Shown: in pieces, positions 5,823-48,766 of the stretch
Layout: each line of letters opens with the position of its first letter
Position numbering within the stretch: the stretch's first letter is position 1
From: a virus
Strand: one strand, 5' to 3'
IMG/VR virus record: IMGVR_UViG_3300005683_000019
Coordinates: 65,622-129,621 of that record
Length of the DNA: 64,000 nucleotides
The notes under the pieces: model-generated
Told to the model about the DNA's origin: nothing
Database searches by the model: none
What the model saw: the letters and a program-made list of their open reading frames with translations, nothing else
Program-made: the position numbers and the translations under genes

Positions 5823-5958
5823 GGTTGGATGGCGAAAAGAGAGAAAGATGTCCTCATCGGCGATGGCGATGTTTTTCAGGTAGACGCTACGGGTAGCACC
5901 CTAGGGATTGTGATGCTGCAATAATCTCGTCCAAGTTCAAATCTTGGTCCGACCACCA
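5823..5958 (+). ncRNA. Leu-like tRNA-shaped RNA with D-loop hairpin insert and abnormal anticodon arm
   Basis: GGTTGGA/TCCGACC-A-CCA, T-arm CCAAG-TTCAAAT-CTTGG, GGTAGACGC D motif, about 40-nt hairpin in D-loop. Confidence 0.6.
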
Positions 5959-6250: not shown

Positions 6251-6467
6251 GAGGTCTTAGCTAAGTAGGTATTTTAAATCTTTACTGATTTAAAAGGCAG
6301 TCGGAGACTTCACAGTTGATCCGATAGAGGCATGTAGTTGGCCGTTGTCAGTGAAAATTTCACTTGACACAAACCCGAAGTTATGTCATTATTGGCATTG
6401 ATTTTGGGAACTATAGCATCGGTGTGAAGAACCGACAGCGCCGGTTCAATTCCGGCAGACCTCACCA
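6251..6467 (+). tRNA. tRNA-Phe(GAA) interrupted by 142-nt D-loop insert (6272-6413)
   Basis: Removing insert gives GAGGTCT TA GCTA AGTAGGTA TAGC A TCGGT GTGAAGA ACCGA CAGC GCCGG TTCAATT CCGGC AGACCTC A CCA. Confidence 0.85.
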
Positions 6468-7481: not shown

Positions 7482-7518
7482 CTCGGAGTAACAGATTAGG
7501 TATAGTCATTACACATAA

Positions 7519-7608: not shown

Positions 7609-7634
7609 ATAAATCTGATTCTAGGCATACTAAA

Positions 7635-7904: not shown

Positions 7905-8185
7905 TCAACGATCCCCTAACGGCAGACATCAATACAGTTCTCGATGATATTATGCGCAGAATTGGCCCAATATCATATCCAGAAGATGAACCTGTGGTTA
8001 GATCGGCTTCCCAATCTCTTTTGGAACGCGGGTGGCTTCCAAGTGAAATTGTCGAATATCAGAAATATTGTGAATCGGTTGACAAATTGATTGACGAAGA
8101 TGTAGCATTGGCACGAATGCAGACGATCATAGATCGTGTTTGCAAGCGTGCGCCAACACTAAATAAAACTAATATGGTAGTCTAG
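7901..8185 (+). CDS. Hypothetical protein
   Basis: Overlaps upstream stop; 94 aa. Confidence 0.65.
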   Translation: MINDPLTADINTVLDDIMRRIGPISYPEDEPVVRSASQSLLERGWLPSEIVEYQKYCESVDKLIDEDVALARMQTIIDRVCKRAPTLNKTNMVV

Positions 8186-8211
8186 CTCTCGGGGAGAGCA
8201 ACACCGTTACA
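8176..8211 (+). tRNA. 5' half of split tRNA (partner at 9092-9146)
   Basis: GGTAGTC TA GCTC TCGGGGA GAGC A ACACC; both strands pair with the 3' half. Confidence 0.75.
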
Positions 8212-8213
8212 CT

Positions 8214-8288
8214 CCTAGTTTGCCTGTCGGTTGAAAGGTCACACCTGATAAGTGTGTATAGTCCGTTAGACTCGGATAACTAGGACCA
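8214..8288 (+). tRNA. tRNA-Ile(GAT), atypical T-loop TTAGACT
   Basis: CCTAGTT/AACTAGG-A-CCA; CACAC-CTGATAA-GTGTG. Confidence 0.75.
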
Positions 8289-8332
8289 ATAAAAAACGAA
8301 CCTTTTTATACACTTTCCATAAATATGGATAT

Positions 8333-9076
8333 ATGAAGGTTCGTTTATTTATGTCTAAATCGTATGAATATGTAAAAAATTGGCGCAAGAGAGTAAAAAC
8401 AATAATAATAGCCTCAATGGGAGGGTCATGCCAGATTTGTCTTTATGCAAAGACTCCAAATGCGTTAGAACTGCACCACATAGATCCTACTAAAAAAGAA
8501 ATATCGTTTAGTTCTAAAACTATTTCATGGAATTCTATGTGTGATGAATTACCAAAATGTATTTTATTATGCGCAAATTGTCACAGAGAAGTCCATGCGG
8601 GAATTGCGGATATTCCGACTGAATATCATGAATTTGATATATCTATTGCAAATACACTAAAACAGGAAATGCTTAACTTCTCTAAAAATAAAAAAATTCC
8701 TCGTTCAAAGTCAGAAATTAAAATGTGCATACAGGAACGTAGGAATTCATTATTAAATAATCCGATAGATTTTTCAAAAAAGGGGTGGCTTGTTGAATTA
8801 TCAAATCTTTGGGGTATACAACCCTCTTCTGCAAAGAAATGGCTTAAAATTCATTATAATGATGTATTTTGCGATGAATTATCAGTGTATAATGACAGAA
8901 AATCTGTTATACACGCCAGCGACATAGCTTTCCACGAGAGAGGCTGGTCAGTTAAACTAGGTAAATTACTAGGAATCTCTCCCGCAAAAGCCGCCATGTG
9001 GATGCGAAAAAATATGCCGGATTTTTATTATTCTGATAACGTTATTAAACATAAAAACAAACTCAAAACACATTGA
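8333..9076 (+). CDS. HNH homing endonuclease
   Basis: CQIC...LELHHIDP...CILLCANCHREVH; C-terminal helical repeats. Confidence 0.85.
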   Translation: MKVRLFMSKSYEYVKNWRKRVKTIIIASMGGSCQICLYAKTPNALELHHIDPTKKEISFSSKTISWNSMCDELPKCILLCANCHREVHAGIADIPTEYHEFDISIANTLKQEMLNFSKNKKIPRSKSEIKMCIQERRNSLLNNPIDFSKKGWLVELSNLWGIQPSSAKKWLKIHYNDVFCDELSVYNDRKSVIHASDIAFHERGWSVKLGKLLGISPAKAAMWMRKNMPDFYYSDNVIKHKNKLKTH

Positions 9077-9091
9077 CACTCTGACTTTACC

Positions 9092-9146
9092 CTGATAAGG
9101 TGTGGCGGAAACGCTAAGGTGAGTTCGAGTCTCACGGCTACCACCA
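9092..9146 (+). tRNA. 3' half of split tRNA (long variable arm)
   Basis: CTGATAA GGTGT GGCG-GAAA-CGCT AAG GTGAG TTCGAGT CTCAC GGCTACC A CCA; no local 5' half. Confidence 0.75.
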
Positions 9147-10502: not shown

Positions 10503-11417
10503 CATGCAAGACGGGAACCACTGACGAGATCTCCCGAAAAATGATCGAAAGCTCTACACTAAATAGAGCTATGGTTTAGCACTCTAGGGACGAAAGGAAC
10601 TAGTGACCGGATAGAGTATCGCGAGATGCTTAAAGATTGGCAGCCTCCCTAGCCAATCACCAGAAATGGCCCATCTAAACAATGGTACATATCTCCACTG
10701 GAAACAGTGGTCTGATCTAAAAAATCAGATAGATTGAAGATGTAGTGGGACAGACAGAATATCTGGCTAACTGTGGGATATCTGTAGCTCCGCAAGAGTC
10801 TACCACATGCAAATACATTGAAAATCGAAGATGAATACCAAGGTATGAGGTTCGAGCTTTAGCGGGCAAGGGCGCATACGAAGATGTATAAGGTTATGGA
10901 AGCTTTGTGCACCATAAAGGTATACAACAGTGTGAGTAGTCTTAGCGGATGAAAGTACAGGAGGCGTGTGGTATATCGTATAATAAAGTTATACGATGTC
11001 ACGGTGACACGCGTCTTAGGAGGTTACAACTTGGCCTATTGGTTGGGCATTAGTCTTTTAACACTAACGTAAGGTGGTTCGACTCCATCAGTTCATAAAA
11101 ACGCAAAGTTGTCACCGGCTGTAATTGAAAATAGCGTAACACTTGACACTTCGGTGAATCAAGTCAATATAAAGCTCGCAAAGCGATATATTGTTCAAGG
11201 AAAGTTGCACGTAAGGGGTAGCTCCCTGTACTGCTCGCAAGGTAGGCGGTAGACGGAACTTGGAATAGATTACAGTGACACTAGAATTGCCACTAGTATA
11301 AAAAGGCCGCTATGGTTGATACTTCCAAGGTGGAAGTGGATAAGGGAAGAACTTTAAGATTAAGCACCTTAGAGATAATGTCCCGAAAGGCAACCGCATC
11401 ATGCTCTAATCTCAGGC
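10503..11417 (+). ncRNA. Giant structured ncRNA, GOLLD-like
   Basis: About 915 nt without ORF, many hairpins with GNRA/GCAA loops, own promoter, tRNA-cluster context; GTGAGTAGTC, GCTCGCAA, GGGTAGCTCC and terminal TAATCTCAG match my recollection of GOLLD (no covariance search run). Confidence 0.65.
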
Positions 11418-11548
11418 TTGACTAATAGATTTCTTAATGTTGCCAAGGATATGTTTCATACGATTCCTTTTGAGTTCTCCTTGTTATAGCACGCCATTCT
11501 TGGCAACATTAAGAAATTTAGATTGACACAAACACTAAATAGATTTAA

Positions 11549-11623: not shown

Positions 11624-11655
11624 AACATAAATATAGATATTATGGGGGAACCAAA

Positions 11656-12423: not shown

Positions 12424-12454
12424 GTTACAGGTAATCAACCGTAGTTATAGGGTT

Positions 12455-12534
12455 ATCGCATTGGAAGCGCTGTGTCCTTGGTTCGAATCCAAGTCACCCG
12501 AAAATGACGGGTGGTACGCCAGTTGGTAGAGCGG
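12455..12534 (+). other. Permuted-order tRNA-Pro(TGG) halves or two remnants
   Basis: Anticodon arm, T-arm and TCACCCG come first; after AAAATGA come CGGGTGG and the D-arm. Confidence 0.5.
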
Positions 12535-12581
12535 GTAAAATATCCTTGACATTTTTGTTGATTAGTTGTATTCTAAATAGT

Positions 12582-13930: not shown

Positions 13931-13938
13931 AAAATTAT

Positions 13939-14698: not shown

Positions 14699-14819
14699 TG
14701 GAACCTTCTGTAATTTATAGATGTATTTATGCGCTTGGTTCCATTTTGTACTTGACATATGGATCAGAGTAACGTAGAGTGTCGCAAATGCCAAACAATT
14801 AGCTAAACGGGTGAAAAAT

Positions 14820-15454: not shown

Positions 15455-15594
15455 GTCTCTTTGGCCGAGTGGTCTATGGCAGCAGGCTGTGGGTGTAGAG
15501 TTATAGGCTCTTTTCAGTTCAAATCTGAAATCACCAAAAGTAACCTGCCGTTGCGAAAGCACAATCGTTGGTTCGAATCCAACAGGGGACTCCA
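15455..15594 (+). tRNA. His-like tRNA (GTG) with 50-nt anticodon-loop intron and long variable arm
   Basis: GTCTCTT/AGGGGAC-T-CCA, D-arm GCCG/TGGC, stem GCAGG/CCTGC interrupted at 15493-15542. Confidence 0.75.
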
Positions 15595-16379: not shown

Positions 16380-16416
16380 GCAGGTATCGTCTAACTGGAT
16401 TAGGATACCTGCACCA
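16380..16416 (+). ncRNA. 37-nt tRNA minihelix ending A-CCA
   Basis: GCAGGTATC...GATACCTGC-ACCA with D-loop-like interior. Confidence 0.5.
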
Positions 16417-16796: not shown

Positions 16797-17639
16797 ATGT
16801 GGACTTGTAAATACTGTAATACAACTTTTCATGAGTTTAAAACTTCGCAAAAAGCTAACCATACTAGATGGTGCGATAGAAATCCAAACGCAATTGAAAT
16901 CAGAAAAAATGCTGCTGCGCAGGAAGCGGCAGCTAAAACATTTAATGAGAAGCTCGGCGAATTTAAAGAATATAGTGTAAATTGCTTTAAATGCGATTCT
17001 TCAATAATTGTTAAAGAAAGAACTAAACAACATCCATTAAAAGAATCATATTTCTGCAGTAGAAAATGCGCAAATTCGCACCAAGTATCAGATACAACTA
17101 AGAATAAGATTAAACAAAGTGTTGATAGATTTTTTGAAGCAACTAAAGACGAAAGATTAGCCGCTAATAAAAAATACTCGAAAATTTGTAAAACCTGTAA
17201 TTGCGAGTTTGAATTAACTTATCTATCACGAAAGAGATCTTATTGTTCTGAAAAATGTAAAAAGAATAGAATATTACCATCAAAAACAAACAAAAGAACA
17301 AATGAGTCACTCCAAGAATACAGAAGACTTTGCGCGTTCAAATTCAATCTGGCAGATTATCCGAATGAATTTGATTTTGATTTAATTAGAGAGTATGGTT
17401 GGTACAAACCTAAAAATAAAGGCAATAATTTGAATGGTGTTAGTAGAGATCATTTAATCTCTGTTAGATATGGATTTGATAATAAAATAGATCCAAAGAT
17501 TCTATCACACCCGGCAAATTGTAAATTGATGCAACATAACAATAACGTTTCTAAGTACACAACTTGTGAATTATCCTTAGAACAATTATTAGAAAGAATA
17601 GATCAATGGAACGAAAAATACCCATTGACAAAAGACTAA
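16797..17639 (+). CDS. Zn-finger-rich HNH-like homing endonuclease
   Basis: Several CxxC and YCS/FCSxxC motifs; SRDH...HPANC...HNNNVSK. Confidence 0.75.
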   Translation: MWTCKYCNTTFHEFKTSQKANHTRWCDRNPNAIEIRKNAAAQEAAAKTFNEKLGEFKEYSVNCFKCDSSIIVKERTKQHPLKESYFCSRKCANSHQVSDTTKNKIKQSVDRFFEATKDERLAANKKYSKICKTCNCEFELTYLSRKRSYCSEKCKKNRILPSKTNKRTNESLQEYRRLCAFKFNLADYPNEFDFDLIREYGWYKPKNKGNNLNGVSRDHLISVRYGFDNKIDPKILSHPANCKLMQHNNNVSKYTTCELSLEQLLERIDQWNEKYPLTKD

Positions 17640-19359: not shown

Positions 19360-19447
19360 GCCGCCTTGCCAGAGTGGTTTGAATGGACCTGATTCGTAAT
19401 CAGGCGACGTAAGTCCATCGCAGGTTCGAATCCTGTGGGCGGCTCCA
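19360..19447 (+). tRNA. tRNA-Thr(CGT) with long variable arm
   Basis: CCTGA-TTCGTAA-TCAGG, GAC-GTAA-GTC arm, C2-G71. Confidence 0.85.
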
Positions 19448-20841: not shown

Positions 20842-21179
20842 CTACACGTCAAATCTTTGATAAAGCAAAATCCCATCTTCTAACACAGCGGGCAAAGGCT
20901 GTTAATGAAGATGGTGAATGCGCATATCGCACTAACAACGGTCTACAGTGCGCAGTTGGTTGCCTGATTGAACGTAGTGAATATCGTAAGGAAATGGAAG
21001 GTCTTACGTTTGACGAACTTGACCAAGTTCGTATGGCGTTCAAAAACTTCGACTTGGGCAATCGTGAACATTACGCCCTGTTGGGCCGTTTGCAACACAT
21101 TCACGATCTATATCAAGTAGATGTTTGGGAAGATAAATTAAATGAACTCGAAAATGATTTTTTCGGAAACGCAAACTAA
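20835..21179 (+). CDS. Hypothetical phage protein
   Basis: CAYR...CAVGCLI...LQHIHD motif. Confidence 0.7.
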   Translation: MLTTRQIFDKAKSHLLTQRAKAVNEDGECAYRTNNGLQCAVGCLIERSEYRKEMEGLTFDELDQVRMAFKNFDLGNREHYALLGRLQHIHDLYQVDVWEDKLNELENDFFGNAN

Positions 21180-21488: not shown

Positions 21489-21935
21489 ATGTCTACCTTC
21501 TCTAAAGCCCTCCAGATCGCCACAGAAGCGCATTTTAATACTTATGACAAGGGTGGCCACTCCTACATCTTACACCCGCTCAGAATCGCAATGCGGCTGC
21601 GCACGCATGATGAAGAACTTATGTCCATTGCGGTGATGCATGACACGATTGAAGATAGTGCGGTGACGTTCGAAGATTTGGCCAATTTTGGTTTTAGCGA
21701 ACGGGTTATCAATGCTTTGCGCCTTCTGACTCATCAGAAAGGTCAATCATATGACCAGTATATTGACGCCATGCGCGGTAATATTGATGCGCTTAAAATC
21801 AAGCGCGAAGATCTTCGCGATAACTCTGATATCACTCGTCTGAAAGGAGTTACGGAAAAAGATATTAGACGCATGGAAAAATACCAGCGGTCTTTCATGA
21901 GGGTAGAACAGTTCATCAAGGAACTGGAAAAATGA
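21489..21935 (+). CDS. HD-domain hydrolase, SpoT/Mesh1-like
   Basis: ATEAH...DKGG..YILHP...AVMHDTIED. Confidence 0.85.
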   Translation: MSTFSKALQIATEAHFNTYDKGGHSYILHPLRIAMRLRTHDEELMSIAVMHDTIEDSAVTFEDLANFGFSERVINALRLLTHQKGQSYDQYIDAMRGNIDALKIKREDLRDNSDITRLKGVTEKDIRRMEKYQRSFMRVEQFIKELEK

Positions 21936-23287: not shown

Positions 23288-23500
23288 TTTGTATCTAAAG
23301 ATACAAATCTTCCTAATCAAATAAGTGGAATCTCCACAAGAGGGAAGAAGTTGTAAGTAAAAGCAGTCGGAGACTTCACGGTTGATCCGATAGAGGCATG
23401 TAGTTGGCCGTTGCCAGTGAAATTGTCACTAGACACAAACCAGAAGTTATGTCATTATTGACATTGATTTCAGGAACTATAAAAAGTACCAAAAAGAAAG
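23288..23500 (+). ncRNA. Stand-alone structured RNA sharing a 119-nt core with the tRNA-Phe insert
   Basis: 23363-23481 equals 6297-6415 with 9 substitutions by hand alignment; TATAAATA upstream, terminator downstream. Confidence 0.75.
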
Positions 23501-24792: not shown

Positions 24793-25566
24793 TTATGTTA
24801 ATTTCTTCTGAGATGACTCGTATATATCAAATATTTTTTGCACGTTCTTTCTGTCGCGTGTAAACACGTTAACTGCGCCAGATTTTTTGTGAACTTTGGT
24901 ATAATGTATGCCAAGTCTGTCCAATGAAGAAGTATAAAGATTTATGATATCCATCGATTTGTTTGTAAATTGATATGATGGTAGATCTGTTTTCGAGCCA
25001 TCTTCTTTTATTCTATTACTGGCATTGAAGAGACATCCATCGGTATCAATCAATCCTTTAATAAAGCAATCTGTATGTTCTTCCACTAATTCAGTCTGCC
25101 AATCTGTTAACAGTATATTCCTATCATGCTTTTTCCCTTGACCATGTTGTGGAAAGTATTGATCTAAAGATTTATTGTATACTGTTATTGTATACATGTT
25201 ATATGACGGATGTTTGATACTATTGACTTTATTTTGGTTGAACAATATATTCAGCGAACGTATTTGGTCATCAATGATTGAAGGATGAGCAGAACCGCTG
25301 AATATTTCGAGTTTCTTTGTGCGTGGAAACTGACTAATACAACCATCACCCAAATAACAACCAAGAATATAAACGTAATGGGGTGCGCAGTTTTTACATA
25401 TGTTTATGATATCTTCTTTAGTTGTTGATATTGTTCTTGTGCCAGTTGTAAAATTATTCTGCTTCCAATAAAAGACTGTTGATTCCCCAACGCCAAGTTC
25501 TTTTGCAATTTGACGCAGTGACGCGCCATCTGATATTCTATTTTTTGTGTACTCAAATCTATCCAT
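24793..25566 (-). CDS. HTH plus double-motif LAGLIDADG homing endonuclease
   Basis: LRQIAKELGV; LGCYLGDGC and IKGLIDTDGC. Confidence 0.8.
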   Translation of the reverse strand: MDRFEYTKNRISDGASLRQIAKELGVGESTVFYWKQNNFTTGTRTISTTKEDIINICKNCAPHYVYILGCYLGDGCISQFPRTKKLEIFSGSAHPSIIDDQIRSLNILFNQNKVNSIKHPSYNMYTITVYNKSLDQYFPQHGQGKKHDRNILLTDWQTELVEEHTDCFIKGLIDTDGCLFNASNRIKEDGSKTDLPSYQFTNKSMDIINLYTSSLDRLGIHYTKVHKKSGAVNVFTRDRKNVQKIFDIYESSQKKLT

Positions 25567-27960: not shown

Positions 27961-28728
27961 TTAGTTCCAATTCAATTTTAAGCAATTCTGACAAATTACA
28001 ACACTGTCTTTTAAAGCGTCTGAATATTCTTTGTCAAAGTGTATAGTATTCTTTCTCTTAACACCTTCGGGTAATATAATACACAAAGAACCTTTGTATG
28101 TATTGTACCCACAATTTTCACAACAATCTTTTCCAGTCGCTTCAAGATGTAATTGTTTTGACAAATTCCAGCGTTCTGAATTATCTTTAATTTTGTTAGT
28201 GTACCCGGATTCTTCTACGATTTCGTGATGAATCTCATGGTGACAATTGTGGCATACTAAGATGCACTTGTCTAGTTCTGGCTTTATTGTTAAAAACGAA
28301 GCACTTCGATACTCTGAAATATTGAAATCTTTCTCTTTTGGGTCTAAATGGTGAAACGCGTATTGCGCGAGTTCAAATTTACCATGACATCTAGAACATT
28401 TCCCACCCATATAGTTGACACAGGTTTCTTTCAATAAATCTTCTGCTTGCATCGAATGCTTTATCAGGCACGGCTTACAAGTTGGATTATATCCATCTCT
28501 ATCTTTTCTTTTATAAAACTCTTCAATAGGCTTTTCCGCATTGCACATCCGGCAAACTTTCTTTCCGTTGACAATTGGATTCAATTCCCTGCCACCGCCT
28601 CTTCCTGAAGTTTTTAGATTATGTGTCTTTAGTATTGTCTTTATTTTAGCCGGCGTACTATTGAAATGCTTTGCTAATTCGTTTATTGACTTACCATCGG
28701 CGACTAATTTTTTCAGTTCTTCTAACAT
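27961..28728 (-). CDS. HNH homing endonuclease
   Basis: CRMC...CKPC; CSRC...FHHLDP...CILVCHNCHHEIH. Confidence 0.85.
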   Translation of the reverse strand: MLEELKKLVADGKSINELAKHFNSTPAKIKTILKTHNLKTSGRGGGRELNPIVNGKKVCRMCNAEKPIEEFYKRKDRDGYNPTCKPCLIKHSMQAEDLLKETCVNYMGGKCSRCHGKFELAQYAFHHLDPKEKDFNISEYRSASFLTIKPELDKCILVCHNCHHEIHHEIVEESGYTNKIKDNSERWNLSKQLHLEATGKDCCENCGYNTYKGSLCIILPEGVKRKNTIHFDKEYSDALKDSVVICQNCLKLNWN

Positions 28729-28792
28729 TTACTTTCTCCTAGTATGTTATTTCTATTTATAGGAGAAACAAAAAAGTGTAAAAGTGTTGATT

Positions 28793-28868
28793 TGGTGGGC
28801 ACAACTGGATTCGAACCAGTGACCGGACGATTATGAGTCGTCTGCTCTACCGACTGAGCTATATGCCC
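28793..28868 (-). tRNA. tRNA-Ile2(CAT), lysidine type
   Basis: AGAGCAGACGACTCATAATCGTCCGGTC closely resembles bacterial Ile2; G1-C72, A73. Confidence 0.75.
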
Positions 28869-28946
28869 GTCCACTTCAATCTTCACTACATGAATCGTAC
28901 TCTACACACTTCCAAAACCGTTTGCAAGCACTTCTTTTCTCATCGA

Positions 28947-29237
28947 CTAATACTTAATCGTACCACGAAAATCCCATGTTGTTACACCCTTTTCTTTTGA
29001 CTGTAAGACATATACAGTCTTCGCTTTATATCGACCTTCGGTTATATCCTTATCCGTCACACGCTCATTCATTTCCCATTCACACGCATTTTTATAGTGG
29101 CGTTTGATATTAGCGATACGCTCTTCTGGTAACTGATATTGCCAGTCTTGCCTAGCAACACATTCGTTAATCCGAATCATTTCTAGGTGATAATTAAATT
29201 CATGGCGGCAATACGATTTTTGTAGGTATGTTTCCAA
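28947..29237 (-). CDS. Hypothetical protein
   Basis: TTG-start ORF. Confidence 0.5.
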   Translation of the reverse strand: METYLQKSYCRHEFNYHLEMIRINECVARQDWQYQLPEERIANIKRHYKNACEWEMNERVTDKDITEGRYKAKTVYVLQSKEKGVTTWDFRGTIKY

Positions 29238-29277
29238 TCCAACTTATCTATAATAATAGCAATTAATTTATCCATGA

Positions 29278-29550
29278 TTACCCCCATTGGTTTGCCATTG
29301 CTTGTGCGATGCCCTCATACGTCCTAGAACGCTCTTTCCAGCGATATTCGCTTGGAGGTAGACGGTTCTGGCCGGAATCAGTCTGATTGCCCCAGCGAGG
29401 CTTTCCGTCGATCATACGGGCACCTACCATTTGTGTTGGTACTAAAGGTACAAGGTTCTTGAGCCATAAGCAAGTCTGTTTGCTGGCGTCATGTCCAAAT
29501 TGATACGGTTGAATCTTTTGATCGAATTTACGAATCCTTGTAGAAATACA
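29278..29550 (-). pseudogene. C-terminal remnant of a widespread phage DNA-methylase-like protein
   Basis: CISTRIRK..QPYQFGHDASK.TCLWLK...RSRTYEGIAQAMANQWG; no in-frame ATG upstream. Confidence 0.7.
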
Positions 29551-29686
29551 TTGGATGCCAGTGAGGCTCGTACCATTCAGGATCGTCCTTGTTAGCAGGA
29601 CACTCCATCCAATAGTATAGATTTTGATTGTCTCTCGCGTCTAGCACTCCGAGCAATGTAAACACTGGCCATATTTGTCTGTCCAT
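29528..29686 (-). CDS. 52-aa hypothetical protein
   Basis: Hand translation, GGAG RBS. Confidence 0.45.
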   Translation of the reverse strand: MDRQIWPVFTLLGVLDARDNQNLYYWMECPANKDDPEWYEPHWHPMYFYKDS

Positions 29687-29862
29687 TACCTATCTCCAGC
29701 GATGTACCTATTAAAGTATTCCAGACTTTCTTCGTCTTGTCCAGACCAATCGTCATCGCTTTCGTAACAATCATCTAACTGCTTGATTTGATTCATGAAT
29801 TCAATGGAATCGGGATGATCATGTGGCAGATGTTCGATATCAGCGTAGGTGAGCTTTTTCAT
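29686..29862 (-). CDS. 58-aa acidic hypothetical protein
   Basis: Hand translation MKKLTYADIEHL... Confidence 0.5.
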   Translation of the reverse strand: MKKLTYADIEHLPHDHPDSIEFMNQIKQLDDCYESDDDWSGQDEESLEYFNRYIAGDR

Positions 29863-30171
29863 TGGTTAGTTCCGATGAGATAGAAGACGTTCATTGTGTA
29901 CAAGTATACGCCAACTGCCGCCAAAATGGTGGCAGTGGTTACAATTTTACAAAAGAGCTTCACTTGCGCGGCTTCCCGTGACGATTCAATAACTTATGCG
30001 CAATTTCACGTCGTGCATTACTGAGCTTTCGACGCTGCTCCGCGATCTTGAGACAATGTGCAACACTCTTAGGAGTTTCATACTCCGGATACACATCCTT
30101 CAGCTTATCCTTACCGCTATTTTCATTATCCATTTTATTATTCCTTATTCATTTTTAGTTGAGTTAAAAGA

Positions 30172-30851: not shown

Positions 30852-31092
30852 TTGTGCTATCCTTTAATTTATTAATTGCACGTTGAACACATGCATCGAT
30901 ATATTGTTCTAATACTTGCTCTGCGGATGTCCTTGCCCTATCAACCGCATCAATATAGTCAGAACCGTGCCAATCCCATGAATACCCGTTATATTTCTCG
31001 CGGGCCGCATCATGTATACTCTGCGCATTAGCATAGTCTGCCATGGCAGACATAACAGCGTCAATTGATAAAATTTGTGATCCCATTGTCAT
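30844..31092 (-). CDS. Hypothetical protein
   Basis: Coupled ORF. Confidence 0.6.
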   Translation of the reverse strand: MTMGSQILSIDAVMSAMADYANAQSIHDAAREKYNGYSWDWHGSDYIDAVDRARTSAEQVLEQYIDACVQRAINKLKDSTNE

Positions 31093-32198
31093 TCATCCTC
31101 ATTATGAATTTCGTTAATACCAAACGCTCGATAGTTTTTCATCATCCATTCCTTCAAACCAATATCCTTTCCGAGATATAAATTCATTCCAAGAGAGAAC
31201 ATATCTCCTAGTTCCTTCTGACCCTTGATCGCAAAATCCTTACGAATCAATGACTTATTGTCGTCATAGAACTTCTGAAGGAGCGCAGAACGATGATTAT
31301 ACTCTCGACGAACCAGAGCTTCCATGCTTGAAATTTGACTGAGTGCCAATTCGTCGTCATGGAACATTGAACGAAGGTCGTCAGAAGTCTCAAACAAACA
31401 TGCTTGAAATAGCGCCTTAGGATTGTTCACACTATCTTTCATACGATGAGCGATACAATATGAAGTTGTCTTGACTTTGCAGACACGACCATCTCGAAAC
31501 ACTACCACGAATCCTTCAATACCAGTCATCTCAAGGATTTCTTCATAAGTTCGACGAACGGTATCATACGCCACTACATACTCTTGTAGACGAATTTCAC
31601 ACTCGTCAGGATAATAAGTTTGACCATTACGATTGTCGCGAATATTCAGAATGCACAGTGAATGTTCTTTATACCCAATAACAATACGATTGGACGGCCC
31701 GGTCCACTCAAAATTTACAGTGTAACCAGCGTATACATTATTTCGAATGAGTGTCAGGAAGCGTTCATTTTCAGGACGCAAAATCCAGTTATACGCGTCG
31801 ATGGCCTGTTGGGAAGTGAATGAAGTCTTAGACTTGAAACGAAAACCATGCGGCATCGTATGGTCTTTGACTGTCGAAATCAAAGATCCATCTACCTTAT
31901 CCATATAAAGAACCGCTTGTGAAAAATCCAAGTCCATGACCATCGGGTTTTCATACGCGTTGAAAAACTTGGCTGGCGGCATCGAAACCAACTCAGTTGG
32001 AATGTAACCATTCATCAAAAATGTATGACCGCGACATTCCAGTGCATTTGGCTTACAGAAATCAGTGTATGACGCTAGACGATAAGTGAACACGCGGAAC
32101 ACCTTACCATCTACATTTTGATCGACATAATAAAAAGCCTCTGACTGATTGCAGAGGTTCATGAGATCGTTGTACAAATTTTGCTGGAAGGTATTCAT
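31089..32198 (-). CDS. rnlA: RNA ligase 1 (T4 RnlA-like)
   Basis: ECRG, PPAKFFN, motif I KVDGSL, FEW, EGFVV, KVKT..Y. Confidence 0.9.
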   Translation of the reverse strand: MNTFQQNLYNDLMNLCNQSEAFYYVDQNVDGKVFRVFTYRLASYTDFCKPNALECRGHTFLMNGYIPTELVSMPPAKFFNAYENPMVMDLDFSQAVLYMDKVDGSLISTVKDHTMPHGFRFKSKTSFTSQQAIDAYNWILRPENERFLTLIRNNVYAGYTVNFEWTGPSNRIVIGYKEHSLCILNIRDNRNGQTYYPDECEIRLQEYVVAYDTVRRTYEEILEMTGIEGFVVVFRDGRVCKVKTTSYCIAHRMKDSVNNPKALFQACLFETSDDLRSMFHDDELALSQISSMEALVRREYNHRSALLQKFYDDNKSLIRKDFAIKGQKELGDMFSLGMNLYLGKDIGLKEWMMKNYRAFGINEIHNEDE

Positions 32199-32277: not shown

Positions 32278-32832
32278 TTAGTCGTAGATCACAACTTCTA
32301 CGGTCTTCGGGGTGACTTCACGCATGCTAGATAGAAAACACTCCCAATAATAACCGTCATATGATGAATATGAATAGGTACACTTGAAATACTTATTATC
32401 GAGCATGAAGATAACTTCACAATCCCCTGTACCGCCCTCGCCTCCACCCTCTTGTTGGATGCATGACGTCGGAGCAAGCGGAGCGCCACGGGCACGCGCT
32501 GCATGACTACGAGCAATCCTCCTGGCAGCGTCCACAGAACCGGGGCCAGCCGCGTGGTGCACGATGGCACCATTGTCGAGAAATCGGCCTCCTGCATGTT
32601 GGCAATCAAGCCGTTTAGAAATGTCCTCCATGGTCCGGCACCCCCATAGGCGGACCACCTCTACGCCACCAGATAGCCCGAGGTCAGCATGGCCGCACCT
32701 TGCGTCACAGGTTGCGCAGCTTTCGTGACGCTCCCCGTTCTTTGAAAGCACGCCAGCGCCTTGCTGCACACACCGGCCGTTCAGCGCGCGCACAAGCGCC
32801 TGCTGAATCGCAATAGCCGGGACGCCGCTCAT
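32278..32832 (-). CDS. Chimeric ORF: GC-rich N-terminus fused to native AT-rich C-terminus
   Basis: Sharp composition switch near 32425; C-terminus ends REVTPKTVEVVIYD. Confidence 0.4.
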   Translation of the reverse strand: MSGVPAIAIQQALVRALNGRCVQQGAGVLSKNGERHESCATCDARCGHADLGLSGGVEVVRLWGCRTMEDISKRLDCQHAGGRFLDNGAIVHHAAGPGSVDAARRIARSHAARARGAPLAPTSCIQQEGGGEGGTGDCEVIFMLDNKYFKCTYSYSSYDGYYWECFLSSMREVTPKTVEVVIYD

Positions 32833-33059
32833 GCGGCGGCCCGCCGCATGTATTGGAGTGCGTAGCCCTTGCTGGAAAGATTAATGTTGGCTTCCATGTA
32901 TGCCAGGTCATTGATTGCCTGGTGGTCACGCCCGAACACAACGAAAGATCCCAGCCACTCGCCGGTGTGTGCCGAAAGTTCAACCAGCGCGCGGCAAACC
33001 GACCGGCCGTTGACGATGGTGTTCGGAAGCATTTCGATGGTGGCGGTGGCGTTGTTCAT
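32829..33059 (-). CDS. Hypothetical protein of GC-rich insert
   Basis: MNNATATIEMLP..., high-GC codon usage. Confidence 0.6.
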   Translation of the reverse strand: MNNATATIEMLPNTIVNGRSVCRALVELSAHTGEWLGSFVVFGRDHQAINDLAYMEANINLSSKGYALQYMRRAAA

Positions 33060-33070
33060 TTTTGTTGGCT

Positions 33071-33128
33071 CCGTGCTGGTGTGGGTGAATCCGTGCTGGT
33101 GTGGGTGAATCATATATCCGGATATATG
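33071..33128. repeat. 20-bp tandem repeat plus 18-bp palindrome
   Basis: CCGTGCTGGTGTGGGTGAAT twice, then CATATATCCGGATATATG. Confidence 0.9.
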
Positions 33129-33255
33129 TCCGCGCAACTACCGTTCGTCTGCTATTTCTAGCCGCTACCATAGTCTAATTTGATGTAAGAGGTCTGGCCT
33201 GTTGCGCGCTAACCATGCTGGCCAATTTTCTGCCAATTCTTCCAACATCAATCTT

Positions 33256-33861
33256 TCACTGAGTTTTATTTAAATATTTATATTTTTTCCGAATAACTGT
33301 TTTAAGACCGGGATTAACGTGGTACAGGTGCTGTACGATATTAGCACGCATGTAGTTGCGCATCAGGGACAAATCCTTGTTGCATTCGTCTTCTACGGGA
33401 TCTAAGTTATTGTTTTTACAGTAGTTTATAAAAGTTTGCTTCTCTGTTGTAAGAAATGGGCGAATAATATTACCGCTTTCAACTGGAATCAGCTTACCTT
33501 CGCCGTGGAGCGAAGACCACACCCACGTCTCTACCGCATCATCTAAATGATGTCCAGTAATAATCTTTTGATCGAAAGAGCGCAAGAACCTGTATCTGGC
33601 CCTACGCCAAACGTCTTCGATTGATCTACCTTTAGGGATATCGCCGCTGAAACTATCAACTACGATTTTCATATGTAGTAAGTCAGCGAGATGGCAACAT
33701 TTATATTCAATCTCTGGAGAATATTCATCCATGTGATTGAAATGGTACAATGTTACGTTTTTCTTGCCCATTTTCAAGAAATGTGCAATCGCTAAAGAAT
33801 CGACCCCGCCACTGAAGGCGAGGCCGATATCATTAGGAATCTTAGTTAGGATTTTGAACAT
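33256..33861 (-). CDS. tilS: tRNA(Ile)-lysidine synthetase-like, catalytic domain only
   Basis: SGGVDS PP-loop, HFNH, RRARY, TGHHLDD.VET, IRPFL, RNYMR. Confidence 0.85.
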   Translation of the reverse strand: MFKILTKIPNDIGLAFSGGVDSLAIAHFLKMGKKNVTLYHFNHMDEYSPEIEYKCCHLADLLHMKIVVDSFSGDIPKGRSIEDVWRRARYRFLRSFDQKIITGHHLDDAVETWVWSSLHGEGKLIPVESGNIIRPFLTTEKQTFINYCKNNNLDPVEDECNKDLSLMRNYMRANIVQHLYHVNPGLKTVIRKKYKYLNKTQ

Positions 33862-34123: not shown

Positions 34124-35106
34124 TACACTTCCTCGTACACTGCGATAGTTTTTGTAACTGGCTTAACTGGAATAAGCCATTCAGAACATTCATAACTGAT
34201 ACTGTTACCTAAACGATCAGTCATGTCATACGCTTTATAAAACTGACCGGATTCATCTTGGTGAACATATTCTACTATGGCATGCCCCGTCTTGCAATGG
34301 ACAGTAGTTAGTTCGCCATCAATAATAAATGATGGAATTTCCTTTCCAGTAGCAGTTAGAAAGTTATTGAAGAACTTACGATCAAAGTTATTCAGATACC
34401 ATGAAAGATTATCAAGAATGAACTGAGACGCCCAATTCTTTGTGAGATTAGTGATTGTTTTCTGAACTGCGTACAAATACGCAAGAGCCGGATGAATTTT
34501 TCCATCACTAGGAATTACCCAACGCTCAAGGGCAATTACACACATTTCTTCACGAAACATGTTCAACTTCGATTCAAAAGGTAGCTCGTCAAATTTAGCA
34601 CGGTCAATCATGACTTCCGCGTTATCCGACAGCGCAAATGTATACAATGGTGGGTTAGGACTCGCCACGACTTCATGAAGCCAGTCGTGATCATATTTCT
34701 TTACAACGGCATCATTGAAAAAATCATCCTTTGAACGATCAAGAGATAGACGACTCTTATAGCCATGAGTCTTCTTCCAAAAATCTTTAAAAGCATAATA
34801 CAATTCATCAATCCTGTACGCTCCGTGACGCTCCAACATAATTACATCGATAGCGTGTTTAAACCAAAAGATATCCCACTCAAGATGCGATTCCTTGATC
34901 GTGTAAAGAGCACACTTGGACACATGATACAGGTTTTCATCGAGCTTAATGCAATACTTCAAAAGAAGATTGAACAAATCAGGCGGCAATGCATGGCTAT
35001 CACCATTGGGGCGTTTGTCACCCTCAATATAAAAATAGTCCAAATCATTGACTTTAATATAAAAACCCATCAGATTAAGTGCGCTGCTACCAATCAAGAT
35101 TTTCAT
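34123..35106 (-). CDS. Phage nucleotidyltransferase-like protein
   Basis: MKILIGSSAL...NDLDY (GS..DxD); start corrected. Confidence 0.65.
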   Translation of the reverse strand: MKILIGSSALNLMGFYIKVNDLDYFYIEGDKRPNGDSHALPPDLFNLLLKYCIKLDENLYHVSKCALYTIKESHLEWDIFWFKHAIDVIMLERHGAYRIDELYYAFKDFWKKTHGYKSRLSLDRSKDDFFNDAVVKKYDHDWLHEVVASPNPPLYTFALSDNAEVMIDRAKFDELPFESKLNMFREEMCVIALERWVIPSDGKIHPALAYLYAVQKTITNLTKNWASQFILDNLSWYLNNFDRKFFNNFLTATGKEIPSFIIDGELTTVHCKTGHAIVEYVHQDESGQFYKAYDMTDRLGNSISYECSEWLIPVKPVTKTIAVYEEV

Positions 35107-35290: not shown

Positions 35291-35396
35291 TTTGTTACTT
35301 TGAAACCTCTCTGTGGTTGGTGTAACCATACTACAAAAAAGAAGGGGTGCCGTCAAGCACCCCTTTAATGTTACACCAGTCATGTTTATTGTTTGT

Positions 35397-35891
35397 TTAG
35401 TTGCATCCGACCGGTGGTACTACTACTGTAAATGGTTGTAATGTATCTCTAGAGAACGTGTAGTTCCCATTTAAAGCCGCAGTGGACGACACTATATTAA
35501 CGACTAGGTATTGGTTTAACGCGTCATATGACACCAATTTAGCAGTTCCGGCAAATGAAAAACCGGAATATATATTATAGCTAGTGCCTAACACGAAGCC
35601 TGTATTGGTAGAATCTACATTTCCAAATGAGCCATGGAAAACCGTGGTCGTAGTTCTAGGTAGAGACAATACTCCTCTGATGGCTTTTCCGCAAGTAGAA
35701 GGAGCGCCCATTCCAGACGCGGAATAGGTTCCAATATTAAGTGTAAGTCTAAGTGCACCAGGCCCTATCCAATTACCTGACACTGATTCGCTCACAGTTA
35801 ATGGTACTGATGGGTATGTGCTATACGACTGTTTTGCTTCTAAATTAATAGAAGATAAAGCTAAAATGGCTGCAAATATGTATTTCTTCAT
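35397..35891 (-). CDS. Secreted beta-rich protein
   Basis: Signal peptide MKKYIFAAILALSSINLEA; GGAG RBS; TATAAATA upstream. Confidence 0.7.
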   Translation of the reverse strand: MKKYIFAAILALSSINLEAKQSYSTYPSVPLTVSESVSGNWIGPGALRLTLNIGTYSASGMGAPSTCGKAIRGVLSLPRTTTTVFHGSFGNVDSTNTGFVLGTSYNIYSGFSFAGTAKLVSYDALNQYLVVNIVSSTAALNGNYTFSRDTLQPFTVVVPPVGCN

Positions 35892-48139: not shown

Positions 48140-48766
48140 ATGAAACTAATAGCAACTAGTGACACCCATTTCGTTATACCGCATAATATAATTCCAGAGG
48201 GAGATGTATTCATTCATGCCGGGGATTTATTATATGGAAACATTGAGAAAGAATGGTATGATAACATAGAATGGATCGCCCAGCTACCTCATAAAACTAA
48301 ACTATATACCCCCGGCAATCATGATCACTATGTTTGGGAACATCCACAACGCGCTATAAAAGAGTTAAATGACCGGGGTATTACCTTGCTAGGGTATCCG
48401 GGTAATCCGGTCACAGAAGTCGACGGAATTCGTTTTCTTGGCATACCTTTTGTGACTGGTTTAATGGGATGGTCTTTTAACGCGACAGAATCTTTCATAC
48501 AAAATTATGTTGAAGATGTCTATAAAAACACTGAAAAAATAGATATAGTAGTAGCACATTCTCCACCATATGGGATAATGGATTATGGTTACGGTGTAAT
48601 GTATTTTAATAGTCTGTTAGAAAAATATAAACCGGAATTATTCATATGCGGGCATGTTCACGAGGGTTATGGAATATTCGATTATGGGCACGGGCATGTC
48701 ATAAATGTTTCAATGTGCGATGAGCGATATAATATTAAAAACGCGCCGATGATTATAGATATATGA
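48140..48766 (+). CDS. Calcineurin-like metallophosphoesterase
   Basis: SDTH, HAGDL, GNHD, HSPP, GHVHE. Confidence 0.9.
   Translation: MKLIATSDTHFVIPHNIIPEGDVFIHAGDLLYGNIEKEWYDNIEWIAQLPHKTKLYTPGNHDHYVWEHPQRAIKELNDRGITLLGYPGNPVTEVDGIRFLGIPFVTGLMGWSFNATESFIQNYVEDVYKNTEKIDIVVAHSPPYGIMDYGYGVMYFNSLLEKYKPELFICGHVHEGYGIFDYGHGHVINVSMCDERYNIKNAPMIIDI

What the first reader, a model, noticed from the sequence alone, without database searches (positions are those of the whole stretch)
31089..32198. Overall hypothesis: an interrupted-tRNA maturation and decoy system using Rnl1
One window holds three D-region insertions, two anticodon-loop interruptions, a permuted tRNA candidate, a minihelix, a nested tRNA mimic, a duplicated structured RNA and a T4-type RNA ligase. 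In T4, Rnl1 with Pnkp repairs cleaved tRNA-Lys. Here it could also join programmed breaks, with the two metallophosphoesterases as candidate end-healing enzymes. No Pnkp or splicing endonuclease is recognisable in the window.
Basis: inference. Interest (0 to 1): 0.75.

Follow-up and report, generated by a model that had tools for sequence, protein, structure and literature searches.

The report
Phage ligase and discontinuous tRNA genes
A large uncultured phage carries a genuine T4-type RNA ligase and several tRNA genes that are interrupted or circularly rearranged in ways conserved in related phages, which suggests, without proving it, that a bacterial virus cuts and rejoins its own tRNAs, as is otherwise known only from archaea and eukaryotes.

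Summary
The ORF at 31089-32198 (-) is a genuine T4-type RNA ligase 1. It passes the curated RnlA model and aligns to T4 Rnl1 structures at E 1e-59.

The "one system" idea lumps unlike things:
- The tRNA-Phe D-loop insert and its duplicate are copies of a TnpB guide-RNA mini-transposon.
- The split tRNA-Ile is broken by an HNH cassette that carries its own tRNA-Ile.
- The tRNA inside GOLLD is a known feature.
- The 136-nt tRNA-like RNA and the minihelix have no counterpart in relatives.

Two items are real, conserved, discontinuous tRNA genes:
- A 50-nt insert between anticodon positions 35 and 36 of tRNA-Asn recurs in two complete 307-315 kb relatives and four metagenome contigs, with compensatory changes. 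It folds as a miniature tRNA top half, and its ends match where RNase P and tRNA 3' processing would cut.
- The permuted tRNA-Pro recurs in one relative, with 5 of 7 acceptor pairs changed on both sides.

Relatives also carry hairpin introns in tRNA-Lys and tRNA-Trp.

No EndA, T4-type Pnkp, RtcB or RNase III is encoded.

Rnl1 sealing of 3'-OH/5'-P breaks made by host RNases is the most likely single mechanism, at about 0.4, and is wholly inferred. Healing by the phosphoesterases and the decoy idea are unsupported.

The parts
31089..32198 (-). T4-type RNA ligase 1 (RnlA), 369 aa, with nucleotidyltransferase motifs and the C-terminal tRNA-specificity domain
   Evidence: NCBIfam TIGR02308 at 272 bits against a cut-off of 242. 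PF20819 at E 7e-20. phrog_562 at E 4e-95. PDB 2c5u/5tt6/9do4 at E 1e-59, with KxDGS aligned. The lysines of motifs I and V are invariant in 17 homologues.
15455..15490 (+). 5' exon of the interrupted tRNA (positions 1-35, ends with anticodon nucleotides G34 U35)
   Evidence: ARAGORN with introns. Rfam tRNA hit 15455-15591. The junction is fixed by an intron-less orthologue.
15491..15540 (+). 50-nt intron-like insert. It has a closing stem, a D-loop-like element and a T-arm-like hairpin, so it resembles a miniature tRNA top half.
   Evidence: Conserved in G001 (two copies), G002 and loci L087, L089, L094 and L095. Covariation shows 93% of cells paired, 21 pairs changed on both sides and 0 of 500 shuffles reaching this. 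The fold is kept in the MFE structure.
15541..15594 (+). 3' exon of the interrupted tRNA (position 36 to CCA), with a long variable arm
12449..12548 (+). Circularly permuted tRNA-Pro(UGG). The order is leader, anticodon hairpin, T arm, acceptor 3' strand, 7-nt linker, acceptor 5' strand, D arm, trailer. The junction lies between positions 28 and 29.
   Evidence: De-permuted forms are called tRNA-Pro by ARAGORN. A homologous permuted gene lies at G001 20894-20993, with 5 of 7 acceptor pairs changed on both sides and all still pairing. C1-G72 and A73 fit proline identity (read from the sequence; identity rule from general knowledge).
6251..6467 (+). tRNA-Phe(GAA) gene split in the D-loop by a mobile repeat. 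The element core is about 6293-6415.
   Evidence: The repeat has copies at 92-97% identity in the genome and one at 91% in G002, directly abutting a TnpB ORF. ARAGORN misreads the gene as Ser with a 120-nt intron.
23359..23481 (+). Free-standing copy of the same repeat (the 'duplicated structured RNA')
   Evidence: blastn gives 92% identity over 123 nt.
8176..9146 (+). Ancestral long-variable-arm tRNA-Ile(GAU), split after position 31 by an 886-nt cassette (8206-9091). The cassette carries tRNA-Ile 8214-8288 and an HNH ORF 8333-9076.
   Evidence: The joined halves give an 85-nt tRNA-Ile, and the acceptor stem is identical to G001 tRNA-Ile 90050. HNH domain. No group I intron hit.
10961..11418 (+). 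GOLLD RNA with an embedded tRNA-like unit at 11028-11093
   Evidence: Rfam RF02032 at 201.8 bits, and RF00005 at 34.1 bits inside it. tRNAs in the GOLLD linker are described in bioRxiv 10.1101/2024.12.08.627333.
5823..5958 (+). 136-nt tRNA-like RNA with a good acceptor stem, T arm and CCA. It has a hairpin in the D-loop and no usable anticodon loop. Status unknown.
   Evidence: Fold. No Rfam hit, no ARAGORN call, and no counterpart in G001/G002.
16380..16416 (+). 9-bp hairpin ending in ACCA (the 'minihelix'). Status unknown.
   Evidence: Sequence read. No counterpart in relatives.
48140..48766 (+). Calcineurin-type metallophosphoesterase, 208 aa
   Evidence: PF00149 at 53 bits and phrog_1649.
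33256..33861 (-). PP-loop ATPase equal to the N-terminal domain of tRNA lysidine synthetase TilS, next to Rnl1 and conserved there in relatives
   Evidence: TIGR02432 at 105 bits against a cut-off of 93.6. PF01171. 70-75% identity in L004/L005.

Best explanation
There is no single maturation-and-decoy system.

Shown:
- The window is the tRNA island of a roughly 300-kb jumbo phage, with an orthodox T4-type Rnl1.
- The island is riddled with selfish DNA. A TnpB guide-RNA mini-element sits in tRNA-Phe, an HNH cassette sits in tRNA-Ile, and there are at least three further homing-endonuclease genes.
- Two genes are discontinuous in a conserved way that is constrained by RNA structure.
- The first is a tRNA with anticodon GUU, interrupted between positions 35 and 36 by a 50-nt insert that folds like the top half of a tRNA.
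- The second is a circularly permuted tRNA-Pro.
- Relatives also have AU-rich hairpin inserts at the same place in tRNA-Trp and in tRNA-Lys.

Inferred:
- The inserts are introns removed by host RNA-processing enzymes.
- RNase P would cut at the 5' end of the mini-tRNA. Its first nucleotide sits 12 stacked pairs from the T-like loop, with U at -1 and G at +1.
- A tRNA 3'-end activity would cut four nucleotides past the stem.
- An RNase III-type cut with a 2-nt 3' overhang would remove the hairpins.
- All of these leave 3'-OH and 5'-phosphate in an open anticodon loop. That is the natural substrate of Rnl1 and needs no Pnkp.
- Rnl1, kept for repair of nuclease damage, would also seal these programmed breaks, and its presence would let such inserts persist.
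- The permuted tRNA needs either end-joining inside a helix, which is more an Rnl2-type job, or works as two pieces like the phage's permuted tmRNA.
For: Rnl1 identity.

Asn insert:
- It is conserved in G001 (two copies in different tRNA bodies), G002 and four metagenome loci.
- Covariation: 93% of cells paired, 21 pairs with double changes, 0 of 500 shuffles reach this. The insert's closing stem and T-like hairpin both covary.
- In all six distinct variants the 3' strand from the T-like loop to the insert's end is 16 nt, that is 5 + 7 + 4 as in a tRNA (sequences).
- Intron-less orthologue L089 c823-894 has the loop CTGTTAA exactly where G001 48532-48654 has the insert.
- In G001's 38-tRNA set all 20 amino acids are covered, and Asn only by insert-bearing genes.

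Hairpin introns in relatives:
- Removing 26 nt from G001 35367-35479 gives an 87-nt tRNA that matches its intron-less neighbour at all but one position, with no gaps.
- The Lys orthologues keep a compensatory acceptor pair.
- The Trp junction, fixed by intron-less Trp genes, gives a 2-nt 3' overhang.

Permuted tRNA: conserved, with 5 of 7 acceptor pairs doubly changed.

Enzymes: no EndA, RtcB, RNase III, PNK3P or bifunctional Pnkp, even in the two complete relatives.

All three insert-bearing genomes have Rnl1.

T4 Rnl1 joins 3'-OH/5'-P tRNA halves (PMC3400036).
Against: - No expression or end-mapping data exist. Every cleavage step is inferred from geometry.
- Rnl1 homologues occur in at least 1705 phage records, and there is no reason to expect these inserts there. 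Of these only RAS14 and Xoo-sp13 were tested: both are Rnl1-positive and lack the insert, and RAS14 has ordinary Asn, Trp and Lys tRNAs. Its presence is therefore fully explained by repair.
- The insert-bearing genomes are one clade, so co-occurrence is not independent evidence.
- They also encode one to four other RNA-ligase-family proteins.
- The mini-tRNA lacks a CCA-like tail, and its cleavage site is buried in a helix.
- No known enzyme is shown to make the 3' cut.
- Three metagenome contigs carry an intron-less tRNA-Asn beside the insert-bearing gene. The window's copy has a long variable arm and U73, which is untypical for Asn. It may therefore not be needed as a decoder.
- Rnl1 lies 15 kb or more from these genes.
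Confidence: 0.4

Rival explanations
1. Rnl1 does only what it does in T4, which is to reseal tRNAs cut by host anticodon nucleases. The discontinuous tRNA genes are matured by other enzymes, such as the Rnl2-family ligases of these phages, an unrecognised phage nuclease, or host RtcB.
For: - Rnl1 plus kinase and phosphoesterases is the usual jumbo-phage repair kit (PMC7824862).
- Rnl1 is widespread and there is no reason to expect such inserts in most of the phages that carry it; the two cultured relatives tested lack the insert.
- Further RNA ligases include G000 28604-29911 and its orthologues.
- A stand-alone PNK-like kinase exists in G001 and G002.
- The permuted tRNA's junction is a nick in a helix.
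Against: The breaks left by removing the Asn, Trp and Lys inserts lie in the single-stranded anticodon loop, the documented preference of Rnl1. No phosphatase partner of a Pnkp was found. No RtcB is phage-encoded.
Confidence: 0.3
2. The insert-bearing and permuted genes are never converted into ordinary tRNAs. They act as they are, for instance as decoys or inhibitors of host anticodon nucleases or tRNA-modifying enzymes, or as two-piece RNAs like the permuted tmRNA.
For: - The insert-bearing Asn-type gene coexists with an intron-less tRNA-Asn in three contigs.
- Its body in the window has a long variable arm and U73.
- The insert's sequence, not only its structure, is conserved around the junction.
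- The phage already uses a permuted two-piece tmRNA.
Against: - Exact removal restores canonical 7-nt loops matching Asn, Trp and Lys.
- G001 and G002 have no other tRNA-Asn, and G002 has no other tRNA-Trp.
- The permuted gene carries proline identity marks.
Confidence: 0.15
3. All interruptions are debris of selfish DNA in a tRNA island, and the interrupted genes are dead.
For: - The TnpB-type repeat sits in tRNA-Phe.
- An HNH cassette sits in tRNA-Ile.
- Four or more homing-endonuclease genes lie in the island.
- The Asn insert shows presence/absence polymorphism between close relatives.
Against: Compensatory changes occur in the exons and in the inserts across phages whose Rnl1 and neighbouring proteins are mostly about 40-75% identical. 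Dead genes would not keep pairing.
Confidence: 0.07
4. One reading: Rnl1 plus two metallophosphoesterases heal and seal all the interrupted genes, while the minihelix, the GOLLD tRNA and the duplicated RNA serve as decoys.
For: All the listed sequences exist. Calcineurin-type phosphoesterases can heal RNA ends in some bacterial Pnkp proteins (general knowledge; PMC7824862).
Against: - The parts are heterogeneous and mostly explained otherwise.
- Only one such esterase is in the window.
- The inferred cuts need no healing.
- The minihelix and the 136-nt RNA are not conserved.
Confidence: 0.05

Closest known systems
T4 tRNA repair (Pnkp + Rnl1 against the PrrC anticodon nuclease)
   Same: The ligase is an equivalog-level member of the T4 RnlA family, with the tRNA-specificity domain. 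The predicted substrate is a broken anticodon loop.
   Different: No bifunctional Pnkp is present, even in complete relatives. The breaks proposed here are programmed, lie at 35|36, and would already carry 3'-OH/5'-P ends.
Enzymatic tRNA splicing of archaea and eukaryotes (EndA endonuclease, bulge-helix-bulge motif, RtcB or Trl1 ligase)
   Same: Short protein-dependent introns sit in the anticodon loop, and exact removal restores a 7-nt loop.
   Different: - There is no EndA homologue.
- The position is 35|36, not 37|38.
- The pairing register that fits all variants has one 3-nt bulge, not two.
- The expected end chemistry is the opposite.
- The host is a bacterial virus.
[quoted passage not shown]
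   Same: The 3' part precedes the 5' part. A short linker without CCA joins the acceptor strands, and leader and trailer pair with each other.
   Different: The junction lies inside the anticodon stem (28|29). There is no bulge-helix-bulge motif and no EndA. It is found in phages.
Self-splicing group I introns in bacterial and phage genes, including bacterial tRNA genes
   Same: The anticodon loop of a bacterial-type tRNA is interrupted.
   Different: The inserts are 26-51 nt, far below group I size, and have no Rfam hit. The insert folds as a tRNA-like three-way junction.
tRNA-like processing signals (mitochondrial tRNA punctuation, MALAT1 mascRNA; own knowledge)
   Same: A tRNA-shaped element would direct RNase P and tRNA 3'-end enzymes to cut a longer RNA.
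   Different: Here the element sits inside another tRNA's anticodon loop, and the flanks would have to be rejoined.
Two-piece (permuted) tmRNA
   Same: The gene order is permuted, and one is present in this window and in G002. It offers a ligation-free precedent for the permuted tRNA.
   Different: It is a tmRNA, not a decoding tRNA. Its pieces stay separate.

Membership tests
T4 RnlA (Rnl1) RNA ligase family | Scores above the curated family cut-off over the full length | tested here: met
   TIGR02308 at 272 bits against 242.25, residues 6-345. phrog_562 at E 4e-95.
T4 RnlA (Rnl1) RNA ligase family | Adenylylation lysine in motif I (KxDGS) and the lysines of motif V | tested here: met
   KVDGS aligns with T4 KEDGS. 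K101, D103, G104, K241 and K243 are invariant in 17 homologues.
T4 RnlA (Rnl1) RNA ligase family | C-terminal domain that confers tRNA specificity | tested here: met
   PF20819 at E 7e-20, residues 254-359.
T4 RnlA (Rnl1) RNA ligase family | ATP-dependent joining of 3'-OH and 5'-phosphate RNA ends | not testable with these tools
   Needs an enzyme assay.
T4-type tRNA repair pathway (Pnkp + Rnl1) | Bifunctional polynucleotide kinase-phosphatase encoded by the phage | tested here: not met
   No ORF combines a Walker A motif with DxDGT in G000, G001 or G002. No PNK3P domain. There is only a stand-alone 161-170 aa PNK-like kinase in G001 and G002. G000 is about 60% complete.
Archaeal/eukaryal enzymatic tRNA introns | Splicing endonuclease (EndA family) | tested here: not met
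   PF01974 is absent from all three genomes at E <= 1, and the controls ring.
Archaeal/eukaryal enzymatic tRNA introns | Canonical position 37|38 and a bulge-helix-bulge motif | tested here: not met
   The junction is 35|36 by comparison with intron-less orthologues. The register kept by all variants has one 3-nt bulge and two G.A mismatches.
Group I self-splicing intron | Conserved catalytic core, usually over 200 nt | tested here: not met
   The inserts are 26-51 nt. No Rfam intron or ribozyme hit at E <= 1 in 3000-30000.
RNase P substrate (tRNA-like top half) | Twelve stacked pairs from the T loop to the cleavage site, and a T-loop motif | tested here: met
   In six distinct variants the 3' strand has 12 nt from the T-like loop to the partner of the first insert nucleotide, despite different stem sequences. 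The stems covary.
RNase P substrate (tRNA-like top half) | U at -1 and G at +1, and a 3' RCCA tail | tested here: inconclusive
   U35 and G are invariant at the junction, but the tail is A plus AAG, not CCA, and is paired with the anticodon-loop nucleotides.
RNase P substrate (tRNA-like top half) | Actual cleavage by RNase P | not testable with these tools
   Needs an in vitro assay or end mapping.
Circularly permuted tRNA gene | All tRNA parts are present in the order 3' part, linker, 5' part, and give a valid tRNA when de-permuted | tested here: met
   ARAGORN calls tRNA-Pro(tgg) for many junction choices.
Circularly permuted tRNA gene | The arrangement is conserved, with structure-preserving changes | tested here: met
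   G001 20894-20993: 5 of 7 acceptor pairs changed on both sides, and all pair. Only two genomes carry it; G002 and RAS14 lack it.
Circularly permuted tRNA gene | A circular or rejoined RNA intermediate and a mature contiguous tRNA | not testable with these tools
   Needs RNA data.
GOLLD RNA | Rfam model above its gathering score | tested here: met
   RF02032 at 201.8 bits against 150.
TnpB/omega-RNA derived mini-element (the tRNA-Phe insert) | Homology to the sequence at the 3' end of a tnpB gene, and multiple copies | tested here: met
   Three copies in G000. The G002 copy at 146964-147086 abuts a TnpB ORF ending near 147092.

The most novel reading that the evidence does not exclude
A clade of jumbo phages runs a protein-enzyme tRNA splicing pathway built from repair and housekeeping parts. 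Introns shaped as a miniature tRNA or as a hairpin are cut out of the anticodon loop by host RNase P plus tRNA 3'-end enzymes, or by RNase III. The 3'-OH/5'-P ends are sealed by phage Rnl1 without any healing step. The same phages also keep circularly permuted tRNA genes that need end-joining. This would be the first non-self-splicing tRNA introns and the first permuted tRNA genes in the bacterial world, and a second physiological role for Rnl1.
Probability: 0.35. Interest if true: 0.9.

Novelty: new variant of a known kind. Interest (0 to 1): 0.78.

Why it matters

Conserved, covarying short introns at 35|36 and a permuted tRNA in phages would break that rule.

If the geometry-based mechanism holds, it shows how a repair ligase can make a genome tolerant to intron invasion. 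It would also give Rnl1 a role beyond counter-defence.

In addition, it would supply a natural "tRNA-shaped intron" that could serve as a programmable RNase P-dependent excision module.

The claims can be tested directly with simple in vitro assays and by searching sequencing reads for the predicted junctions.

Tried and rejected
- Archaeal-type splicing: no EndA, and the junction is not 37|38.
- Group I intron or known ribozymes: no Rfam hit.
- T4-type Pnkp, PNK3P, RtcB and phage RNase III: absent.
- HD protein 21489-21935 as a healing enzyme: it resembles SpoT-type hydrolases.
- AAA protein next to the second RNA ligase as a kinase: it is a generic AAA ATPase.
- Wider distribution of the Asn insert: the IMG/VR pattern scans gave only G001 and G002, plus 35 chance hits. 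The prokaryote genome scan gave 13 chance hits. The metagenome scan gave four true loci among 22.
- Permuted-tRNA pattern scan: G001 plus one chance hit.
- Co-occurrence test: four more distant contigs have neither Rnl1 nor the insert, but are mostly fragments.
- ARAGORN 'introns' of 871, 531, 226 and 75 nt in the relatives are poor structures and were discarded. The first two were inspected; the 75-nt one was seen.
- Genome 54231-54332 and RAS14 c296018-296151 remain unclear.
- megablast of the Rnl1 region against phage records: no match.
Full report
**What the window is**

The window is the second half of a 129.6-kb linear IMG/VR virus record that CheckV rates at about 60% complete.
- It holds 20 ordinary tRNA genes, a permuted tmRNA and a GOLLD RNA.
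- No near-identical phage record exists.
- Two complete relatives with terminal repeats were found through Rnl1. G001 is 315 kb and G002 is 307 kb. Their Rnl1 is 64-66% identical, and the neighbourhood (rIIA, rIIB, a TilS-like gene, Rnl1) is syntenic.
- I read both relatives in full.
- The cultured jumbo phages Stenotrophomonas RAS14 and Xanthomonas Xoo-sp13 are more distant, with Rnl1 at 45-47% identity, again next to rIIA/rIIB.

**The ligase**

ORF 31089-32198 (-) is a T4 RnlA-family ligase.
- It passes NCBI's equivalog model, at 272 bits against a cut-off of 242.
- It matches the T4 Rnl1 C-terminal domain and phrog_562.
- It aligns over 344 residues with the T4 Rnl1 crystal structures at E 1e-59, with the KxDGS lysine in place.
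- The catalytic lysines are invariant among 17 close homologues.
- At least 1705 phage records encode a homologue, so the gene as such is ordinary.

**Items that are real but otherwise explained**

- ARAGORN misreads the gene at 6251-6467 as tRNA-Ser with a 120-nt intron. It is a tRNA-Phe split in the D-loop by a roughly 123-nt element.
- That element has two more copies in this genome, one of which is the "duplicated structured RNA" at 23359-23481. A fourth copy in G002 directly abuts a TnpB ORF. This agrees with earlier notes of this scan that it is a TnpB guide-RNA mini-transposon, that is, a DNA-level insertion.
- The halves 8176-8205 and 9092-9146 join into a valid tRNA-Ile(GAU) with the same acceptor stem as G001's tRNA-Ile. 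They are separated by a cassette carrying another tRNA-Ile and an HNH gene. No group I core is detectable there.
- The tRNA-like unit inside GOLLD is a described feature of GOLLD linker regions.
- The island also holds NUMOD4-HNH, HNH and LAGLIDADG genes.
- The 136-nt tRNA-like RNA (5823-5958) and the ACCA-ended hairpin (16380-16416) get no Rfam or ARAGORN support and have no counterpart in the relatives. Their status stays open.

**The tRNA-Asn insert is a conserved, structured element**

- The 50-nt insert (15491-15540) recurs at the same place, between CTGT and TAA of the anticodon loop. It occurs in two adjacent genes with different tRNA bodies in G001, in one gene in G002, and in four metagenome loci, two of which are clearly divergent.
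- On a seven-sequence alignment, 93% of cells pair and 21 of 29 pairs have changes on both sides. No shuffle out of 500 reaches this, and sliding the partner columns destroys it. The insert's closing stem and its T-like hairpin covary.
- The single-sequence fold keeps the cloverleaf plus the insert's three-way junction.
- A covariance model of the insert finds it only in G000, G001 and G002, and not in RAS14 or Xoo-sp13.
- An intron-less orthologue in locus L089 carries the canonical loop CTGTTAA exactly where G001 carries the insert. The insert therefore lies between positions 35 and 36, and its exact removal yields anticodon GUU.
- In G001, whose 38 tRNAs cover all 20 amino acids, Asn is covered only by insert-bearing genes. 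The same holds for G002 and for the part of G000 that we have.

**Shape of the insert (read directly from the sequences)**

- It consists of a closing stem, a short D-loop-like element ending in AGG in the window and the closer variants (the motif sits mid-element in the divergent L087 and L094), and a hairpin with a 7-nt TTCRAAT loop. This is a tRNA top half without an anticodon arm.
- In all six distinct variants the 3' strand runs 12 nt from that loop to the partner of the insert's first nucleotide, then 4 more nt to the insert's end. That is the 5 + 7 + 4 arithmetic of T stem, acceptor stem and NCCA. It holds although the stems differ in sequence and split.
- The nucleotide before the insert is always U and the first insert nucleotide is always G.
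- From established knowledge of bacterial RNase P (12-bp acceptor/T stack, T-loop recognition, preference for U-1/G+1, products with 3'-OH and 5'-phosphate), this is where RNase P would cut.
- The 3' boundary corresponds to the end of a tRNA's CCA. I cannot name the enzyme that would cut there.

**Relatives carry a second intron type**

- Four genes in G001 and G002, and one in L089, have AU-rich hairpins of 26-33 nt continuing the anticodon stem.
- Removing 26 nt from G001 35367-35479 gives an 87-nt tRNA that matches its intron-less neighbour tRNA-Lys at all but one position, with no gaps. The anticodon becomes CUU.
- The orthologous pair G001 100663 and G002 c89367 keeps a compensatory change in acceptor pair 6:67.
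- G002 c141158 is the best match to G001's tRNA-Trp and is syntenic with it. Intron-less Trp genes have the loop CTCCAAA. This fixes the intron between positions 35 and 36 and places the two cuts two base pairs apart with 3' overhangs, which is the RNase III signature (RNase III chemistry from general knowledge).

**The permuted tRNA is real**

- Window 12449-12548 holds, in order: leader, anticodon hairpin, T arm, acceptor 3' strand, a 7-nt linker without CCA, acceptor 5' strand, D arm and trailer. De-permuted versions are called tRNA-Pro(UGG).
- A structural scan found the same arrangement at G001 20894-20993, with conserved leader and trailer.
- Between the two genes, 5 of 7 acceptor pairs are changed on both sides and all seven still pair. 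The junction-flanking pairs 27-28/42-43 also compensate.
- The window's copy has C1-G72 and A73, the bacterial proline marks. G001's copy has a different anticodon loop and acceptor stem, so it is probably another specificity.
- The junction lies between positions 28 and 29, inside the anticodon stem.
- G002 and RAS14 lack such a gene.
- G001, but not G002, encodes a CCA-adding-type enzyme.

**Enzymes**

- None of the three genomes encodes EndA, RtcB, RNase III, a PNK3P phosphatase or a kinase-phosphatase fusion.
- G001 and G002 have a stand-alone 161-170 aa kinase related to the kinase half of Pnkp, next to a dCMP deaminase.
- The window has one calcineurin-type esterase (48140-48766). A second lies outside it.
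- All three genomes hold further RNA-ligase-family genes. One is conserved and sits beside an AAA ATPase, at G000 28604-29911.
- This matches the known jumbo-phage RNA-repair repertoire (PMC7824862).

**Co-occurrence**

| Rnl1 | Asn insert | Genomes |
|---|---|---|
| Present | Present | G000, G001, G002 |
| Present | Absent | RAS14 and Xoo-sp13; expected but not checked for the other Rnl1-encoding records |
| Absent | Absent | Four distant contigs, mostly fragments |
| Absent | Present | None seen |

This is compatible with Rnl1 being necessary but not sufficient. However, the positive cases are one clade, so it is weak evidence.

**Most likely mechanism, and what is shown**

Shown:
- the ligase family;
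- the conservation and covariation of the Asn insert, the hairpin inserts and the permuted tRNA;
- the exact junctions;
- the absence of archaeal-type splicing and of T4-type healing enzymes.

Inferred:
- host RNase P, a 3'-end activity and RNase III excise the inserts;
- the resulting 3'-OH/5'-P anticodon-loop breaks are sealed by Rnl1 (substrate preference per PMC3400036);
- a resident repair ligase is what lets such inserts persist.

I put this at about 0.4. The main rivals are another ligase doing the job (0.3) and the RNAs acting unspliced or in two pieces (0.15).

**Comparison and novelty**

- The ligase itself is already known.
- The discontinuous genes resemble archaeal and eukaryal tRNA introns and the permuted tRNA genes of C. 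merolae. They fail the defining tests of those systems: no EndA, no bulge-helix-bulge motif, and a different position.
- They are also not group I introns.
- Four full-text searches found no report of such introns or of permuted tRNAs in phages or bacteria.
- I rate this a new variant of a known kind. The RNase P-guided excision would be categorically new if shown.

**Limits**

- Everything rests on three related genomes and four short metagenome loci, and there is no RNA data.
- G000 is incomplete.
- Earlier notes of this scan had already flagged most parts of this same window.
- The conservation in relatives, the corrected junction, the mini-tRNA geometry, the hairpin introns and the second permuted gene are new here.

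Noticed in passing
window 32400-33200: About 800 bp at 58-62% GC in a 37-40% GC genome, wedged between Rnl1 and the TilS-like gene. The ORFs there have no Pfam hit. It looks like a foreign insert.
   Followed up: partly
window 33256-33861 (-): A stand-alone N-terminal domain of tRNA lysidine synthetase TilS (above the curated cut-off) sits next to Rnl1 and is conserved there in both relatives. The phage has two CAT-anticodon tRNAs, one of which could be its substrate.
   Followed up: partly
window 7519-7608, 13938-14021, 19360-19447, 15541-15594; G001 34337-34423: Long variable arms occur on Lys, Gln, Thr, Ile and the Asn-type tRNA. The variable-arm hairpin with a GAAA loop is nearly the same sequence in the Lys and Asn-type genes, which suggests a shared recognition module.
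   Followed up: no
G001 76266-76343; G002 c111535-111607; RAS14 c306328-306403 and c302428-302502: Relatives carry suppressor-type tRNAs: anticodon CTA in G001, G002 and RAS14, and also TTA in RAS14. This hints at stop-codon read-through or recoding in this phage group.
   Followed up: no
window 63425-63772 (-); G002 c188755-189099: A permuted two-piece tmRNA is encoded by the phage and by G002, with related tag peptides.
   Followed up: no
window 21489-21935 (+): A 148-aa HD-domain protein is closest to the hydrolase domain of RelA/SpoT proteins and is 76% identical in G002. It is possibly a phage (p)ppGpp hydrolase.
   Followed up: partly
window 11596-12168, 14009-14944 (-), 16797-17639, 24793-25566 (-): Four further homing-endonuclease-type genes (NUMOD4-HNH, HNH, HNH, LAGLIDADG) are scattered among the tRNA genes.
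   Followed up: partly
genome 28604-29911 (-) and 27264-28511 (-), outside the window (L098:8604-9911, 7264-8511): A second RNA ligase (PF09414 plus an OB fold, phrog_968) is paired with an AAA ATPase. The pair is conserved in G001 and G002.
   Followed up: partly
genome 54231-54332 (outside the window); RAS14 c296018-296151: Two more oversize tRNA-like genes with good acceptor, D and T arms but an unclear anticodon region. They are not explained.
   Followed up: partly
G001 c131852-132208: A CCA-adding-type nucleotidyltransferase is present in G001, which has the permuted tRNA, and absent from G002, which lacks it. With only two genomes this is anecdotal.
   Followed up: no
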